A DNA stretch of 64,000 nucleotides, taken from positions 172,263-236,262 of IMG/VR virus record IMGVR_UViG_3300020429_000539; one strand, written 5' to 3'. This DNA is from a virus. Taxonomy: Duplodnaviria; Heunggongvirae; Uroviricota; Caudoviricetes. The position numbers and the translations under genes are program-made. How positions within the stretch are numbered: the first letter of the stretch is position 1; every line of letters begins with the position of its first letter. Under the pieces are notes generated by a model, which ran no database searches, was not told the DNA's origin, and saw only the letters and a program-made list of their open reading frames with translations. This document shows, piece by piece, positions 622-54,188 of the stretch.

Positions 622-1047
622 ATGGGCTACACCATTACCATCAAGTCTAAAGACGATGCTGAGCGCCAGAAGATGTATGCATTCCTTCTTCGCGAGTTTC
701 GCGAATGGAAAGACATCTTCCCTGTCTACGAAGGCCACATGACAGGCTGCTCAGTGGTTGAAGAGGAAGACGGAAGCGTTGGCTTTCACTACAAGTCTTG
801 GATTGATGCTGCTGAGCGTCGCTACATCTATATGATCATGGTACTGCTTCATGACCTCGGCTTTGGCGATGGCATCTGGCTGTATGACGGCGCGTCTGAC
901 GGCGATGAACAACCTGACAGCTACAGAGAATACAGCGATACCTGGCGTCATTTTGCCAGTTTTTCGTGTCATGATATCGATCAAGTCATTTCCACCATCG
1001 AAGGAGAAGTCGAGCGGCTGAAGCAGTCGTGGGAAAGCCAGTCATGA
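622..1047 (+). CDS. hypothetical protein
   Basis: 141-aa ORF, ATGA overlap with next gene. Confidence 0.8.
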   Translation: MGYTITIKSKDDAERQKMYAFLLREFREWKDIFPVYEGHMTGCSVVEEEDGSVGFHYKSWIDAAERRYIYMIMVLLHDLGFGDGIWLYDGASDGDEQPDSYREYSDTWRHFASFSCHDIDQVISTIEGEVERLKQSWESQS

Positions 1048-1379: not shown

Positions 1380-1542
1380 CTCGAAATACATAGAGTACGG
1401 CCCAATTCACTCGAAGAAGGCTGTGGTACAAACAGTGGCTAGATACAAGGGGATGTTCGGCGAAGAGGCTGCCTACTGGGAAGTCTATGACCCGAACGCG
1501 AGAAAGAAGAGCTATGGCAATCGACGGAGACATCCTGATTGA
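1297..1542 (+). CDS. hypothetical protein
   Basis: Basic ORF MDERPYRK...; start uncertain. Confidence 0.55.
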   Translation: MDERPYRKTKKEKTPKTQYMLYYRTKPDSKYIEYGPIHSKKAVVQTVARYKGMFGEEAAYWEVYDPNARKKSYGNRRRHPD

Positions 1543-1993
1543 ATTCATTCGCGAGTCGAATGCAATCGAGAACATCCATCGTGCGCCTCGCCAGACTGAG
1601 ATCGACATCCACGAGAAGCTTCTCGCGCGAGATGAAATAATCATCGCCGACCTCGTGGAGTTCGTATGGACCGTTCAACCTGGCGCGAACCTGCGCAACA
1701 GGCTCGACATGGATGTCTGGGTTGGGCGTCACACTCCGCCGCCTGGCGGACCGGATGTTCAAGAGATGCTTGACGGTTTGCTTCAGCGCATCTCGCTCCG
1801 TGACATCTCTCCTTGGGAGGCTCATGCCACCTACGAGACGATTCATCCCTTCATGGACGGTAATGGTCGTAGCGGACGGGCACTCTGGCTGTGGCATTCT
1901 ATCCGTGATGGCGAGTTTGTTCCAGGTCGTTCGTTTCTACAGCATTGGTATTACTCAACCCTTGACCGATTCCGACTGCCGAAAAGGATTTGA
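1514..1993 (+). CDS. fic: Fic/Doc family protein
   Basis: Fic motif HPFMDGNGRSGR; N-terminal ESNAIE. Confidence 0.9.
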   Translation: MAIDGDILIEFIRESNAIENIHRAPRQTEIDIHEKLLARDEIIIADLVEFVWTVQPGANLRNRLDMDVWVGRHTPPPGGPDVQEMLDGLLQRISLRDISPWEAHATYETIHPFMDGNGRSGRALWLWHSIRDGEFVPGRSFLQHWYYSTLDRFRLPKRI

Positions 1994-4447: not shown

Positions 4448-4563
4448 TTTTAGGGGAGCCTCGTGGAACAGGCACTTCGCGGAAGATGGGTGCTATCTCT
4501 CCGCCCACATACGATTCCGCGACAACCCCATGAGGCGTGGACGATCGGAACCTCCTGCTCCTA

Positions 4564-4634
4564 GGGGCGTTGGTTTACAGAGATGCACGATGCTTCAATC
4601 GTCGTGTGAGGGGTTGCAATCCCCCTCCGTCCCA
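4564..4634 (+). tRNA. atypical tRNA with UCA anticodon (opal suppressor/Trp-like)
   Basis: Acceptor ggggcg/cgtccc, cgatg-ctTCAat-cgtcg, T arm agggg-ttgcaatc-cccct (8-nt loop), weak D arm. Confidence 0.55.
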
Positions 4635-4637
4635 TTT

Positions 4638-4760
4638 GCGAAAGTAGCTCAACTGGTAGAGCATCTTGCCCCATGATGGAGCGTACGCGAAGTCACAGCC
4701 AGTCCGGAACGGCTGCGGGGATCAACAAGAAGGTTAGGGGTTCGACTCCCTTCTTTCGCT
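4638..4760 (+). tRNA. Gly-like tRNA with 50-nt structured insertion in anticodon loop
   Basis: gcgaaag/ctttcgc acceptor, U73, perfect D and T arms, anticodon stem tcttg/caaga enclosing 57 nt. Confidence 0.8.
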
Positions 4761-4767
4761 TTCAGGA

Positions 4768-4836
4768 CTAGGGATGGTGTAATGGTAACACAGTCCTTCG
4801 GGACAGTCTATCGAGGTTCGATTCCTCGGCCCAAGG
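4768..4836 (+). ncRNA. tRNA-like RNA whose anticodon loop is a cUUCGg tetraloop
   Basis: D arm gtgt-aatggta-acac, gtcc-TTCG-ggac, T arm cgagg-ttcgatt-cctcg; acceptor has 2 mismatches. Confidence 0.7.
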
Positions 4837-4843
4837 TCCGTAG

Positions 4844-4981
4844 CTGCTGACAAGGCCCGCAAGGGAGGGTAACAGGAACCACCCGGAGTTGAAGCCAATG
4901 TTCCAAAGCCTCTTCGGACGCGGAGAGGCAATCTGGTCAGGCGACTGACTGGAACGGCAAAGAGGCACTCGCGGTCAGCAG
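4844..4981 (+). ncRNA. multibranched structured RNA, unknown class
   Basis: ctgctgac/gtcagcag closing helix; gttcca/tggaac; gcctct/agaggc; GCAA and GCGA tetraloops; no ORF. Confidence 0.65.
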
Positions 4982-4983
4982 AG

Positions 4984-5013
4984 GCCCTCGTCTTTCGGGA
5001 CGGGGGCTTTTTT
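4984..5013 (+). terminator. intrinsic terminator of the RNA island
   Basis: gccctcgtc-tttcgg-gacgggggc-TTTTTT. Confidence 0.85.
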
Positions 5014-5143
5014 CGTGTCCCTGCTTGATTCCGCCGAGATGCTCCTGTACCGTTACCACATACGTTGCAGGACTGGCTTCATGGGCCGTGAGACGGGACG
5101 TTCCCTCTTACACAGTCAACCGCCAGCATCAAGGAGATACATC

Positions 5144-8130: not shown

Positions 8131-8217
8131 ATGATGGCGTCTTCCACATACGATTTCGCTACGAGATCGTGTGGCAGTCGCATCTTGTTCCGAGAACCCT
8201 TTTACGGAGAACCCCAA

Positions 8218-8730
8218 ATGGCTGATGAGCAGAACACCACGCCCGAGACCGAGGCCACCGAATCCACTGGACGGGCCACCGTCCCCGAGATCAACTCCAT
8301 CGAGGAACTCGGCGCGTACGTCGCCGAGTTGGAGGCCAACGAGACCGAGGGGCCGAGCGCCCGTGGCTACACCATCAACGGCGGCCTCCGTGCCGTGTCG
8401 CCGCTGTACTCCCTCTCGCCGAACGTCCTCCTCTCGATGGCGGGCTGCATCAACACGGCGCTCGCCACCCACATCAGCGAGGGAACCGAGGGCGCGCAGG
8501 AGGCTCTCGACCTCTCGATGGCGCACGCTCAGAACGCCGTCACCGTGACGCGCCACACCGCGCAGTTCAACAAGTTCCTCGACATGGCGATCGACCTCGG
8601 CTACGCCCCCGATGGCGCGAACACCGAGGCCCTGACCCACGAGCAGCAGGTCGCCACCGTCGATGCCTTCCTCGCCTCGCAGAAGGGCAAGGTCAACTCG
8701 TGGGCGGCGTGGCAGAAGGCCAACGCCTGA
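8218..8730 (+). CDS. hypothetical protein with highly biased codon usage
   Basis: SD GGAGA, CCACATA at 8144, terminator follows. Confidence 0.85.
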   Translation: MADEQNTTPETEATESTGRATVPEINSIEELGAYVAELEANETEGPSARGYTINGGLRAVSPLYSLSPNVLLSMAGCINTALATHISEGTEGAQEALDLSMAHAQNAVTVTRHTAQFNKFLDMAIDLGYAPDGANTEALTHEQQVATVDAFLASQKGKVNSWAAWQKANA

Positions 8731-8809: not shown

Positions 8810-9628
8810 ATGGCTGGAAACCGAATCGGCATATCCGAGGCCCAAGCCCACCGTCTCATAGAAGCAGGACTAAACGCAGTACGAGTCCGCTCTCAACGCG
8901 ACGCCAATGGACATTTCCATTCGGGCACACTACTAGCACTGGTTGGGGACAAAGGGCAAGTAAAGCTCGCTTTCCATAAAGGCTCAGAACTAATACCCTT
9001 GCGCGATATTTTTCCATGGCGCAAGGGTAATCTGCTGCGCGGTTGTAAAGACATCAACGAACTTGACAAGATAGTTGGTAAGGACCAAGAGGAAGAAGCT
9101 GCTGTGTATTACGTCAACTATGACCGCAAGAACAGCTTGGTATGGTGTGGAACGACAAAGGGATGGACTCAACATCTTGTTCATGCCAAGTTATATCAAA
9201 GCCCAGGTCGCGCAAGCCAAGGCATGACGCGCGTTCTTAACCAAGACCGCTGGGCCAACATCTGCGACCGTAAGGATATCGACCAGATTCCCTACGAAGA
9301 GGCCGAAGAGCTTTTGGGAACCCTCTTCGCTCAGAAGGCTGAGCAGCAGAAGCCCAAGGCAGAAGAGCCTAAGAAGCAAGCCGCGCCCGCTGAGCCCACC
9401 AAGAAGGCCGAGGCTCCGACCAAGAAGGATGAAGCTCCGACCAAGAAGGCTGAAGCTCCGACCAAGCCTGACAAGGCCGATGACCTCATCAATCGTCTTC
9501 TCCGCACCAAGAAGGATGTCCAGGACGCTCGCGAAATGCTCGTGCTGGCTCAGTCTGAGTTCGAGCAGACGTTGGCCGAGCTTCAGCGTACGATGGGCAA
9601 CGAGACGGCTCAGGCACTCTCGACCTGA
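8810..9628 (+). CDS. hypothetical protein with PTKK(A/D)EA repeats and C-terminal coiled coil
   Basis: 272-aa ORF; 21-nt tandem repeats 9395-9466. Confidence 0.8.
   Translation: MAGNRIGISEAQAHRLIEAGLNAVRVRSQRDANGHFHSGTLLALVGDKGQVKLAFHKGSELIPLRDIFPWRKGNLLRGCKDINELDKIVGKDQEEEAAVYYVNYDRKNSLVWCGTTKGWTQHLVHAKLYQSPGRASQGMTRVLNQDRWANICDRKDIDQIPYEEAEELLGTLFAQKAEQQKPKAEEPKKQAAPAEPTKKAEAPTKKDEAPTKKAEAPTKPDKADDLINRLLRTKKDVQDAREMLVLAQSEFEQTLAELQRTMGNETAQALST
9395..9466 (+). repeat. ~3.4 x 21-nt in-frame tandem repeat
   Basis: cc(c/g)accaagaagg(cc/at/ct)ga(g/a)gct. Confidence 0.9.
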
Positions 9629-50122: not shown

Positions 50123-50309
50123 GTTGGTCTCCGTTGTTGGGCAACCCTAGATTGGTTGCAATAGGTGTTAATATAGATAAAAACAGGAATATCATTCTAT
50201 TTTATCTACAAACAAAATGCTTCGTACAAAACTTTATTAGAATGCCTATTTTGGTCTTTATACGAAGGCTCTGCAAAGGACTTCGCTGATATTGGTCGAA
50301 AATCTTGAT

Positions 50310-51047
50310 ATGAAAACGGTTCATTCGCAAACTTCCGAAGACAAGGTTCTGTATATTATGCGCGGAATTTCTGGTTCCGGCAAGTCTACGCTAGCGAGAC
50401 AACTCGGAGAAGGCGGCGCTGTATTTTCTACGGACGACTTCTTCATGGTCAACGGCGAGTATCAGTTTGACCGTGACTTTATGAGCGAGGCTCATTTCTG
50501 GAACCAGACTCGTGCCGTTGAAGCGATGGATAAGGGAATCTCGCCCATCGTCATCGACAACACAAACGTAGAGGCTTGGGAGCCAAAGTTCTATGTAGAA
50601 GAAGCGATGAAAAGAGGGTATCGGGTTGAAATCAAGGAATCGCAGACTCCCTGGAGATTTGATGCCGAAGAACTCGCCCGCAGAAACACGCACGGAGTTC
50701 CCCTCGATGTCATCCAGGGAATGATCGACAGATGGCATCAAGATATGACCGTTGACGATATTCTAAACGCAGAAAAACCAAAACTATCAAACTCAAAGGT
50801 TAGAAACATGAAAGCAAACTGGTATGGCAAACTCAAACTAGCTTCTCGGTTCACAAACTATCCTCGCATGTCTGAAGAAGACAAGGAGTCGATTGTTCAG
50901 ATGATCAAGGGGCTAGGGAGCAGCAGAGGCGTTAGCGAGGGAACCCAAGAAAGCATTATCAATGAAGTCATGTCCAAACTTAATGCAGGATATGATGTAG
51001 AAGCGATTCGCAACTGGGCACGAACCGCCGTGCAGCAAGCAGCTTAA
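50310..51047 (+). CDS. N4BP2-like/AAA_33 polynucleotide kinase with C-terminal extension
   Basis: YIMRGISGSGKS, FSTDDFF, VIDNTN, RNTHGVP. Confidence 0.85.
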   Translation: MKTVHSQTSEDKVLYIMRGISGSGKSTLARQLGEGGAVFSTDDFFMVNGEYQFDRDFMSEAHFWNQTRAVEAMDKGISPIVIDNTNVEAWEPKFYVEEAMKRGYRVEIKESQTPWRFDAEELARRNTHGVPLDVIQGMIDRWHQDMTVDDILNAEKPKLSNSKVRNMKANWYGKLKLASRFTNYPRMSEEDKESIVQMIKGLGSSRGVSEGTQESIINEVMSKLNAGYDVEAIRNWARTAVQQAA

Positions 51048-53172: not shown

Positions 53173-54188
53173 TGAACTGGTATCAAATACTTAAGTTTGC
53201 TAGTTTTTGGGAAAGCGATTCGGACGGGTCGTTCGAGGATGAGTTGCGCAGGCTTTATGAGTTAGAATACAAATACAACATGATGCGACAGTTGCCTTTT
53301 AATGGCAGAGAAGAGCGTAGAGCTAATATACTTGCAAGACTAGAATCGGAGCTTGGGAATATTATTGTCTATCTCAAAAGCGTCATAGAGCCTGTGTTTA
53401 GCCAGTGGCTCGCGAATCACGCTATTCTAGACCCTCAGCAGTGGGCTGAAGCAAGGGTCAATGGTATCGATGAATACTACTTTGATACAGGTAACACAGA
53501 AGAAGCTTTTGGCTATTTTACAGGCGAGTTTATGGACCTAACCAATCAGCAGCCCAGAGGCTTCGGGGTTCCAAACTTAGATTGTTCGATGGTCGTTCAG
53601 TATCTCAATAACAATGCCAAAGAGTTCGAGCCTTTCATGAATATGGTGCGGAATGACCGCAGAGAAATGGAATACAACGACATCCAAAGCGAAATGTTCG
53701 ACACCGAAGAAGAGCGAGAAGCCGAGCTTGAATCAAGAACTGCAAGACTTGATGAGATGACCATAGGCGACTGGATTACTGATTTTTTCGGTAGCTCGTG
53801 CAGCGATATATCAGAAGCTATGGAGACTATATCCATTCATATTCCGCTTCGCAATATCATGGTTGCCTTGTATCGCGATATTTTGTTCCCGATGTGGATG
53901 GACAGATGGAGGCCGCAAGGCATTGAGGATACACGAAAAGCTATCGAGGATATATATGCTCGTCTTCAGAATATTGAGAACCAAAGTATCGCCGAGGCAA
54001 CCGCGACCATTAACCTTGCTCTCCATGCATCGCATCAAACAGGCGATATGACAGACTATCTTCAAGAACATGAAGATGTTGACTGGGATATCAAATCGGT
54101 TCTCGATGAACTAACCGCCACAGACACAGAGGAAATTCGTAAATGGATGCAGGATCTTAAATCTGTCGGAGTGGAGATTGCAGCATGA
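53172..54188 (+). CDS. hypothetical protein with MNWY leader
   Basis: MNWYQILKFAS. Confidence 0.85.
   Translation: MNWYQILKFASFWESDSDGSFEDELRRLYELEYKYNMMRQLPFNGREERRANILARLESELGNIIVYLKSVIEPVFSQWLANHAILDPQQWAEARVNGIDEYYFDTGNTEEAFGYFTGEFMDLTNQQPRGFGVPNLDCSMVVQYLNNNAKEFEPFMNMVRNDRREMEYNDIQSEMFDTEEEREAELESRTARLDEMTIGDWITDFFGSSCSDISEAMETISIHIPLRNIMVALYRDILFPMWMDRWRPQGIEDTRKAIEDIYARLQNIENQSIAEATATINLALHASHQTGDMTDYLQEHEDVDWDIKSVLDELTATDTEEIRKWMQDLKSVGVEIAA

What the first reader, a model, noticed from the sequence alone, without database searches (positions are those of the whole stretch)
4768..4836. Anticodon-less tRNA mimic: anticodon loop replaced by a cUUCGg tetraloop
Seen: a Gln-type D arm (gtgt-aatggta-acac) and a perfect T arm, but the anticodon arm is gtcc-UUCG-ggac, 3 nt shorter than normal; a 7-nt loop cannot be drawn with a paired stem. 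A hyperstable tetraloop in place of the loop suggests selection rather than decay. Inference: an L-shaped decoy that cannot decode and resists anticodon nucleases. It could titrate tRNA-binding defences, synthetases, EF-Tu or T-boxes, or be a substrate of the RNase P-like RNA.
Basis: partly seen in the sequence, partly recalled or inferred. Interest (0 to 1): 0.7.

Follow-up and report, generated by a model that had tools for sequence, protein, structure and literature searches.

The report
Lineage-specific anticodon-less phage tRNA look-alike
A 488-kb uncultured phage carries a 69-base gene that folds like a tRNA but has a four-base UUCG cap where the anticodon loop should be, so it cannot read codons; five related phage lineages lack it, so nothing yet supports a role as a decoy.

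Summary
Window 4768-4836 (+) matches the Rfam tRNA model at 29.4 bits (cut-off 29). It has an intact D arm, T arm and elbow nucleotides. Between them sits GUCC-UUCG-GGAC, and no 7-nt loop with a paired stem can be drawn.

The 7-bp acceptor stem has two mismatches. In the transcript the closing helix is predicted to shift register and extend into both flanks.

The element lies in one transcription unit: promoter box, tRNA(UCA), a tRNA body with a 57-nt insertion, this element, a conserved ~140-nt structured RNA, then a terminator. Only the ~140-nt RNA and the promoter/terminator frame recur in the three close lineages (86-91% neighbour-protein identity). At this slot one lineage has nothing, one has an unrelated ~225-nt module, and one has no tRNA-like genes in the unit at all. 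Two remote lineages (57-60%) have only ordinary tRNAs and a third (58%) has none in the equivalent stretch. All copies in the window's own lineage are identical. The nearest paralogues are the phage's tRNA-Gln(UUG) genes.

I read it as a tRNA-derived, non-decoding passenger module, probably still cut out by tRNA-processing enzymes. A neutral relic is nearly as likely. A trans-acting decoy is unsupported, and aminoacylation is unlikely. This scan has noted similar anticodon-less phage tRNA look-alikes on other DNA.

The parts
4505..4515 (+). Promoter box CCACATACGAT that heads the transcription unit
Evidence: Sequence. The box is kept as CCACATAGGAT in L002, L005 and L162 at the same place. A second copy, CCACATACGTT, lies at 5056-5066 after the terminator.
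4564..4634 (+). Odd tRNA with anticodon UCA, an 8-bp anticodon stem and a weak D arm; first gene of the unit
   Evidence: ARAGORN and fold. L002 has UUA at the same place. The gene is absent in L005 and L162.
4638..4760 (+). tRNA body with a 57-nt structured anticodon loop
   Evidence: Rfam tRNA 51 bits with a 56-nt insertion. Conserved in L002, L005 and L161. Absent in L162.
4762..4844 (+). About 83-nt segment specific to the window's lineage: the tRNA look-alike plus its pairing flanks. Boundaries are uncertain by 1-3 nt.
   Evidence: In L005 and L161 the insertion-bearing tRNA is followed directly by the ~140-nt RNA. L002 has an unrelated ~225-nt module here.
4768..4836 (+). The 69-nt anticodon-less tRNA look-alike (the finding)
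   Evidence: Rfam RF00005 29.4 bits. Cloverleaf minimum-energy fold. Own model R1 gives 90.5 bits and finds no other copy in the genome.
4765..4769 (+). 5' strand (GGACU) of the extended, register-shifted closing helix; pairs with 4835-4839
   Evidence: Fold with flanks at -26.1 kcal/mol; pair probabilities 0.92-0.94.
4777..4791 (+). D arm GUGU-AAUGGUA-ACAC
   Evidence: Sequence and Rfam alignment. Matches the phage tRNA-Gln(UUG) at G000 67443 at 23 of 25 alignment columns, including a 2-nt gap.
4793..4804 (+). Hairpin GUCC-UUCG-GGAC in place of the anticodon arm
   Evidence: Sequence. Pair probability 0.80.
4812..4828 (+). T arm CGAGG-UUCGAUU-CCUCG
   Evidence: Sequence and Rfam alignment. 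Pair probability 0.97.
4835..4839 (+). 3' strand (GGUCC) of the extended closing helix
4843..4985 (+). Conserved ~140-nt multibranch RNA, the only RNA gene of the unit found in the window and all three close lineages
   Evidence: Present in the window, L002, L005/L161 and L162. Of 39 predicted pairs, 11 keep pairing through changes on both sides.
4983..5014 (+). Intrinsic terminator closing the unit
   Evidence: 12-bp GC-rich stem plus U tract. Conserved in relatives.

Best explanation
The element is a tRNA-derived RNA module with a Gln-type 5' body. It has lost its decoding arm. It sits as lineage-specific cargo in the variable leader of a conserved ~140-nt structured RNA gene.

It is co-transcribed from the CCACATACGAT box with two other odd tRNA-shaped RNAs. 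It folds into a tRNA-like four-way junction whose elbow is intact and whose third arm is an inert 4-bp stub with a UUCG cap.

The most likely mode of action is in cis. Host tRNA-processing enzymes (RNase P, and RNase Z or RNase E) still recognise the acceptor/T-arm/elbow shape and cut at its borders. This separates the upstream tRNA-shaped RNA from the downstream ~140-nt RNA and releases a stable by-product with no function in decoding.

Shown: tRNA descent, inability to decode, position inside a transcription unit, absence from relatives. Inferred: transcription, processing, and any benefit from it.
For: - tRNA model match with the anticodon loop replaced by 4 nt, and a cloverleaf fold.
- All elbow and tertiary nucleotides are present.
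- The nearest paralogues are the phage tRNA-Gln(UUG) genes: 44 and 42 bits with model R1, and 23 of 25 matching in the 5' part.
- The element lies between a conserved promoter box and a conserved terminator, on the strand of all neighbouring RNA genes.
- It abuts tRNA-shaped RNA 7 nt upstream and the covarying ~140-nt RNA 7 nt downstream.
- In lineage L005/L161 the ~140-nt RNA follows a tRNA body directly, so release of that RNA by tRNA 3'-end processing is the arrangement already used in a relative.
- The slot takes different modules in different lineages, which fits cargo rather than a core part.
- UUCG loops are inert caps rather than docking loops (established RNA structural knowledge).
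Against: - There is no expression or end-mapping data.
- The closing helix is imperfect in the 7-bp register. It is predicted to extend into both flanks, which would make it a poorer RNase P substrate than a normal pre-tRNA.
- Relatives manage without the element, so it is not needed to release the ~140-nt RNA.
- No covariation can be measured, because the only copies are identical.
Confidence: 0.4

Rival explanations
1. Neutral relic. The element is a disabled or chimeric tRNA gene left by recombination in a hot spot for RNA-module turnover. It is transcribed only because of where it lies, and it is not maintained by selection.
For: - Absent from all six related lineages, with no paralogue in the genome.
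- Two acceptor-stem mismatches; it barely reaches the Rfam cut-off and ARAGORN misses it.
- The 5' part best matches tRNA-Gln while the 3' part best matches a long-arm tRNA-Ile at G000 80124 (29 of 33 alignment columns, including gaps). This suggests a composite origin.
- The genome holds other tRNA fragments and decayed tRNA look-alikes, at G000 53977-54022 and 84290-84354.
- A relative shows a tRNA 3' fragment duplicated next to an HNH-type ORF (L003).
Against: - The arm is not what one deletion would leave. A perfect 4-bp stem with a C:G-closed UUCG, plus a lengthened 7-nt variable region, needs several changes. Meanwhile the D arm, T arm and every elbow nucleotide stayed intact.
- The flanks add 3 more pairs beyond position 1 (5 pairs in the shifted register) to the closing helix.
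- The lineage carrying it is sampled unchanged in many assemblies.
Confidence: 0.35
2. Trans-acting tRNA mimic. The released L-shaped RNA would bind a protein that reads the tRNA elbow or acceptor end. Candidates are a host tRNA-directed defence enzyme, a modification or processing enzyme, or the phage's own Ro60-like protein.
For: - The elbow is intact and the cap is hyperstable.
- The phage encodes a TROVE/Ro60 protein at 122 bits. Bacterial Y RNAs carry tRNA-like modules that lack an anticodon loop (10.1101/312249).
- Clean tetraloop-capped tRNA look-alikes with perfect acceptor stems occur in unrelated viral contigs: L008 CCAC-UUCG-GUGG and L145 GCCU-GUGA-AGGU.
- Earlier notes of this scan report conserved anticodon-less families in other phages (unchecked leads).
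Against: - It is not conserved in any relative.
- The Ro60 gene is 307 kb away and no Y RNA signature is found. RF02553 is far below its cut-off and hits only tRNA junctions. The topology is canonical, not permuted like YrlA.
- No identity set for anticodon-independent charging is present.
- Enzymes that read the anticodon loop have nothing to bind.
Confidence: 0.15
3. It is a working tRNA that is aminoacylated and decodes, or it is an integral domain of the downstream ~140-nt RNA, or it is protein-coding sequence on the minus strand (ORFs 4734-4931 and 4768-4968).
For: It passes the Rfam tRNA cut-off by 0.4 bits. It lies 7 nt from the ~140-nt RNA. Two minus-strand ORFs of 65-66 aa overlap it.
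Against: - No 7-nt loop or anticodon can be drawn.
- The ~140-nt RNA is complete and covaries in relatives that lack the element.
- The ORFs run antisense to a promoter-terminator unit made of RNA genes, and they span RNA whose variation is compensatory rather than codon-like.
Confidence: 0.03

Closest known systems
Phage tRNA pseudogenes and 'undetermined anticodon' tRNA calls
   Same: A tRNA body in a phage tRNA island whose anticodon loop is not 7 nt. Comparable calls appeared in other viral loci fetched here: ARAGORN 'tRNA-???' in L015, L066 and L124.
   Different: The loop here is a closed cUUCGg tetraloop on a perfect 4-bp stem rather than a 6- or 8-nt loop. The element also has an extended closing helix.
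mascRNA, the MALAT1-associated tRNA-like small RNA (Rfam RF01684)
   Same: A tRNA-like cloverleaf with a reduced anticodon arm. It works as an RNase P / RNase Z processing signal inside a longer non-coding transcript (my own knowledge).
   Different: mascRNA is eukaryotic and not homologous. In the 3-kb scan the RF01684 model matched only a tRNA-Leu, at 22.8 bits, and not this element.
YrlA-type bacterial and phage Y RNAs (Rfam RF02553) with Ro60/Rsr
   Same: A close tRNA mimic that keeps the D/T elbow contacts and lacks an anticodon loop (10.1101/312249). The phage encodes a Ro60-like protein.
   Different: YrlA is circularly permuted, with a sealed acceptor stem and ends at the anticodon stem. 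This element has canonical order and a sealed anticodon stub. RF02553 gives no match to it. The Ro60 gene is 307 kb away.
tRNA-like domain of tmRNA
   Same: Acceptor and T arm with no anticodon arm.
   Different: tmRNA is charged through G3.U70 and A73, ends in CCA, and carries a tag reading frame. This element has A3.A70 and G73, and no CCA. The phage has a separate tmRNA at G000 50171-50520.
Phage T4 species 1 and 2 RNAs (rnaC, rnaD); RNase P-processed C4 antisense RNA precursor of phages P1/P7
   Same: Small stable non-decoding RNAs co-transcribed with phage tRNAs or cut by RNase P at a tRNA-like structure (my own knowledge, not checked here).
   Different: No sequence relation was tested or expected. 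Those RNAs are conserved within their phage groups, whereas this element is confined to one lineage.

Membership tests
Canonical tRNA (Rfam RF00005) | Score at or above the curated gathering score | tested here: met
   29.4 bits against 29, over the full model length. The margin is only 0.4 bits.
Canonical tRNA (Rfam RF00005) | D arm and T arm with the conserved elbow nucleotides (G18, G19, U54-U55-C56, A58, G53:C61, U8, A14) | tested here: met
   All are present in the sequence.
Canonical tRNA (Rfam RF00005) | 5-bp anticodon stem with a 7-nt loop carrying U33 and an anticodon | tested here: not met
   The arm is a 4-bp stem with a 4-nt UUCG loop. Rfam aligns 4 nt where 9 are expected. ARAGORN makes no call.
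Canonical tRNA (Rfam RF00005) | 7-bp acceptor stem with a free discriminator and 3' tail | tested here: inconclusive
   5 of 7 positions pair (A3.A70 and A7.G66 do not). The favoured fold shifts register and pairs positions -3 to -1 with 74 to 76.
Aminoacylatable tRNA mimic (tmRNA-like or minihelix-like) | An anticodon-independent identity set: G3.U70 with A73 (Ala), G-1:C73 (His), or a long variable arm (Ser, Leu) | tested here: not met
   The element has C1:G72, U2:A71, A3.A70, G73 and A-1, and no long arm. Compared with the identity table in PMC9976931.
YrlA Y RNA (RF02553) | Circularly permuted order (T arm before D arm, sealed acceptor stem) and a model score above 69 bits | tested here: not met
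   The order is D arm, stub, T arm. RF02553 does not match the element. The best genome hit is 28.5 bits, at a junction between two tRNAs. Topology of YrlA from 10.1101/312249.
YrlA Y RNA (RF02553) | Ro60/Rsr gene next to the RNA gene | tested here: not met
   A TROVE gene exists, but at G000 484397-485461, 307 kb away.
tRNA pseudogene or relic | Descent from a tRNA gene, loss of decoding, and no conservation in relatives | tested here: met
   for descent. for absence in relatives.
tRNA pseudogene or relic | Evidence of neutral drift, meaning disruptive polymorphism among copies | not testable with these tools
   All four retrievable copies of the lineage are identical over the whole island.

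The most novel reading that the evidence does not exclude
The element belongs to a sporadic but recurrent class of phage-encoded tRNA bodies whose decoding arm is replaced by a tetraloop-capped stub. Other examples are L008, L145, the alanine-type L014 found here, and the anticodon-less families noted earlier in this scan. Such RNAs would act in trans as elbow or acceptor mimics for a tRNA-reading protein such as a host defence sensor, a repair or processing enzyme, or Ro60. This copy would be a recently captured member.
Probability: 0.13. Interest if true: 0.7.

Novelty: new variant of a known kind. Interest (0 to 1): 0.3.

Why it matters
If the module is only processed cargo or a relic, it matters mainly as an annotation caveat. 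Phage tRNA counts and codon-supply arguments should not include it.

It also marks a striking locus. The leader of a conserved ~140-nt phage RNA swaps tRNA-shaped and other folded RNA modules between close lineages.

If it instead binds a tRNA-reading protein, it would join a growing set of phage tRNA mimics that do something other than decode. That is an open question for huge phages with 60 or more tRNA genes.

Tried and rejected
Searches for relatives and homologues:

- Close relatives in IMG/VR through three neighbouring proteins: none.
- Exact-pattern scan of IMG/VR for the D arm plus a UUCG stub: 0 hits.
- Looser pattern GGTA-N7-9-CTTCGG-N9-13-GGTTCGA: 31 loci. Only L008, L014 and L015 are tRNA-like; the rest are chance matches in coding DNA.
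- D-arm plus T-loop pattern: 118 loci. These are mostly ordinary tRNA-Trp or tRNA-Gln, and none is a homologue of this element.
- Metagenome scan with the invariant core of the ~140-nt RNA: only the L002 contig and one more L005-type contig.
- Covariance model R1 (this element plus L008): no second copy in the 488-kb genome. In ten relative loci it found only normal tRNAs at 36 bits or less. In about 0.95 Mb of viral loci only L008 (used to build the model) and the imperfect L015 show a stub.
- Whole-record search of the relatives' contigs: not possible, because the records are not held.
- One 73%-identity relative has no retrievable DNA.

Alternative readings of the element:

- YrlA or Y RNA reading: rejected on topology and model scores.
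- Terminase families as a route to relatives: no match.
- Neighbouring proteins: no Pfam, PHROG or PDB-sequence annotation except a Fic/DOC domain at 1487-1993.
- Alternative fold pairing GGAC 4765 with GUCC 4793, and GGAC 4801 with GUCC 4836: -17.7 kcal/mol and pair probabilities at or below 0.04, so rejected.
- Folding the whole 459-nt transcript gave competing long-range pairs and was not informative about the element.
- The 10-nt identity of the stub with the variable-arm hairpin of tRNA-Leu(UAA) is too short to count as evidence of origin.

Full report
**What is there.** The window is positions 172263-236262 of a 488,051-bp virus record with direct terminal repeats. ARAGORN finds 63 tRNA genes and a tmRNA in that genome. 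At 4768-4836 on the + strand the sequence reads as a tRNA body:

- acceptor 5' strand CUAGGGA, then U8 G9;
- D arm GUGU-AAUGGUA-ACAC, then A26;
- hairpin GUCC-UUCG-GGAC, then AGUCUAU;
- T arm CGAGG-UUCGAUU-CCUCG;
- acceptor 3' strand GCCCAAG, then G73.

Rfam's tRNA model matches it end to end at 29.4 bits (cut-off 29; E = 0.0022 in a 3-kb search). The alignment has 4 nt where the model expects 9 around the anticodon loop. The 69 nt fold into exactly this cloverleaf. ARAGORN does not call it. Every nucleotide that builds the tRNA elbow is present.

In the 7-bp register the acceptor stem has two non-pairs, A3.A70 and A7.G66. When 8 nt of flank are included, the favoured closing helix shifts by one. 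It becomes GGACU (4765-4769) paired with GGUCC (4835-4839), then a small internal loop, then GGG/CCC. That fold scores -26.1 kcal/mol, against -20.1 for the canonical register. In the primary transcript the element is thus a closed four-way junction rather than a pre-tRNA with a free tail.

**Setting.** The element lies in one transcription unit. After it come four RNA genes and a terminator:

- a tRNA with anticodon UCA and an 8-bp anticodon stem (4564-4634);
- a tRNA body whose anticodon loop holds 57 nt (4638-4760);
- the element;
- a ~140-nt multibranch RNA (4843-4985);
- a strong intrinsic terminator.

A second copy of the box follows the terminator, ahead of the next gene. That gene's frame has 84% G+C at third codon positions.

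**Relatives.** IMG/VR held no close relative. Two neighbouring proteins did find relatives in the large protein collection, and I fetched their contigs. Alignments give a clear picture.

| Lineage | Neighbour-protein identity | Content of the unit |
|---|---|---|
| Window's own (L004, L172-L174; from three different sequencing samples) | 100% | Identical to the window over the whole island, element included |
| L002 | 90% | tRNA(UUA instead of UCA), insertion-bearing tRNA, an unrelated ~225-nt module where the element should be, then the ~140-nt RNA |
| L005 / L161 | 86% | Insertion-bearing tRNA followed directly by the ~140-nt RNA. A ~400-nt module that includes part of L002's module lies upstream, in place of the tRNA(UCA) |
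| L162-L165 | 91% | Promoter box runs almost straight into the ~140-nt RNA, with no tRNA-like gene in the unit |
| L003 | 58% | A different non-coding stretch of about 1.2 kb, with no tRNA-model match at E of 1 or less |
| L166, L170 | 57-60% | Ordinary tRNAs only |

The ~140-nt RNA is the constant member. Of its 39 predicted pairs, 11 keep pairing through changes on both sides. Relative to L005, the window-specific segment is about 83 nt (4762-4844). That is the element together with the flanks that extend its closing helix.

**Homologues and paralogues.** A covariance model built from the element and its closest analogue (R1) finds the element at 90.5 bits. Nothing else of the kind appears in the 488-kb genome. 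The next hits are the two tRNA-Gln(UUG) genes at 44 and 42 bits. In ten relative loci the model finds only normal tRNAs at 36 bits or less. Local alignments suggest a composite make-up. The 5' part matches tRNA-Gln(UUG) at 23 of 25 alignment columns, with a 2-nt gap. The 3' part best matches a long-arm tRNA-Ile at 29 of 33 alignment columns, with gaps.

**Is the tetraloop evidence of selection?** It is suggestive, not decisive.

In favour:
- A single deletion in a normal arm would not give a perfect 4-bp stem, a C:G-closed UUCG and a 7-nt variable region. Several changes are needed, yet the D arm, T arm and elbow are untouched.
- The flanks pair.

Against:
- The acceptor stem is imperfect.
- The element is confined to one clonal lineage.
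- The same genome contains decayed tRNA look-alikes and fragments, at G000 84290-84354 and 53977-54022.
- The slot plainly turns modules over.

**Function.** Decoding is excluded. Charging is unlikely. The acceptor end (C1:G72, U2:A71, A3.A70, G73, A-1) fits none of the identity sets that work without an anticodon, as tabulated in PMC9976931. Without charging, EF-Tu binding is not expected. T-boxes and anticodon nucleases read the loop that is missing.

What remains is recognition of the acceptor/T-arm/elbow shape. The most economical reading is that tRNA-processing enzymes still cut the element out. This separates its neighbours, much as the insertion-bearing tRNA directly precedes the ~140-nt RNA in L005. 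I put this at 0.40, a pure relic at 0.35 and a trans-acting mimic at 0.15.

The phage does encode a Ro60/TROVE protein, and bacterial Y RNAs contain anticodon-less tRNA mimics (10.1101/312249). Three points count against a link. Those mimics are circularly permuted. The YrlA model does not match here. The gene is 307 kb away.

**Wider context.** Pattern scans of IMG/VR turned up a few clean analogues in unrelated contigs:

- L008 has a perfect acceptor stem with CCAC-UUCG-GUGG.
- L145 has GCCU-GUGA-AGGU.
- L014 has a 6-bp UUCG hairpin with G3.U70, A73 and an encoded CCA.

They are rare. In about 0.95 Mb of viral loci with 185 strong tRNA-type matches, only L008 and the imperfect L015 show a stub. 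Earlier notes of this scan describe similar anticodon-less tRNA look-alikes in other phages. One is a GAGA-capped case judged to be a recently disabled tRNA, and several are conserved families. These are unchecked leads. They show that this kind of object is recurrent, not that this copy works.

**Verdict.** This is a new variant of a known kind, a tRNA-derived non-decoding element, and it is of modest interest on its own. The more notable feature is the module-swapping RNA locus in which it sits.

Noticed in passing
window 4564-4634; L002 about 9295-9365: The odd tRNA with an 8-bp anticodon stem reads UCA in the window and UUA in the 90% relative. A single C-to-U change turns an opal-reading anticodon into an ochre-reading one. 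The gene is missing in L005 and L162.
   Followed up: partly
window 4505-5014; L002 9190-10005; L005 1-1002; L162 2774-3432: The leader of the conserved ~140-nt RNA is a cassette site. Lineages carry different sets of folded RNA modules between the same promoter box and terminator. One ~60-nt module start (GACCAGGCACCTGGG...) lies after the insertion-bearing tRNA in L002 but before it in L005.
   Followed up: partly
window 4843-4985: The ~140-nt multibranch RNA is conserved in four lineages, with compensatory changes in 11 of 39 predicted pairs. No Rfam family matches it.
   Followed up: partly
G000 84654-84773(-), 624-747(-), 76688-76808(-), 77622-77725(-); window 4638-4760: At least five tRNA bodies carry insertions of 30-57 nt. 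Three share a motif (AACTTGCT ... GCCGA ... ACGGTTA) with a covarying hairpin that is UUCG-capped in two of the three. These look like a conserved insertion family or tRNA-framed RNAs rather than ordinary introns.
   Followed up: no
G000 484397-485461 (-), locus L155: A Ro60/TROVE-domain protein (PF05731, 122 bits) lies in a 576-aa open frame. No Y RNA model match was found within about 1.5 kb on either side.
   Followed up: partly
L008 418-483(-); L145 12878-12941(-); L014 3082-3146(-); L015 9345-9412(-): Unrelated IMG/VR contigs carry tRNA bodies with a tetraloop stub instead of an anticodon arm. L008 and L145 have perfect acceptor stems and stand alone, just upstream of a gene. L014 has the alanine identity pair G3.U70, A73 and an encoded CCA.
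   Followed up: partly
L054, L066, L092, L137, L152, L154: Six viral contigs share a tRNA-like gene with a non-canonical arm (GGUCCGUAUACAACC) and an encoded 3' end of GCCA (GCTA in L152 and L154). The acceptor stem shows a compensatory change (U:A to C:G) between copies, so this is a conserved non-standard tRNA-like family.
   Followed up: no
G000 80124-80210, 80495-80577, 82152-82234, 76235-76326, 87427-87513 (all -): tRNA-Ile, Asn, His, Arg and Lys genes of 82-92 nt appear to carry an extra long variable arm, which is normally limited to Leu, Ser and Tyr tRNAs.
   Followed up: no
G000 53977-54022(-), 84290-84354(-), 85414-85472(-): Sub-threshold tRNA-model matches. These are a 46-nt anticodon-arm-plus-T-arm fragment, a Cys-like body with a broken acceptor stem, and an Ile-like body with a loop reading ACGAUAG. 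They are probably tRNA relics.
   Followed up: no
L003 8067-8590: An HNH-type ORF (8200-8559) follows a tRNA-Met. It is followed in turn by a duplicated tRNA 3' fragment and a variant promoter box (TTCACATGCGAT). This looks like a homing-endonuclease insertion at a tRNA gene.
   Followed up: no
window 1487-1993 (+): A Fic/DOC-family protein (PF02661, 32 bits) is encoded just upstream of the five-gene tRNA-Leu cluster and is conserved in relatives L002 and L162.
   Followed up: no
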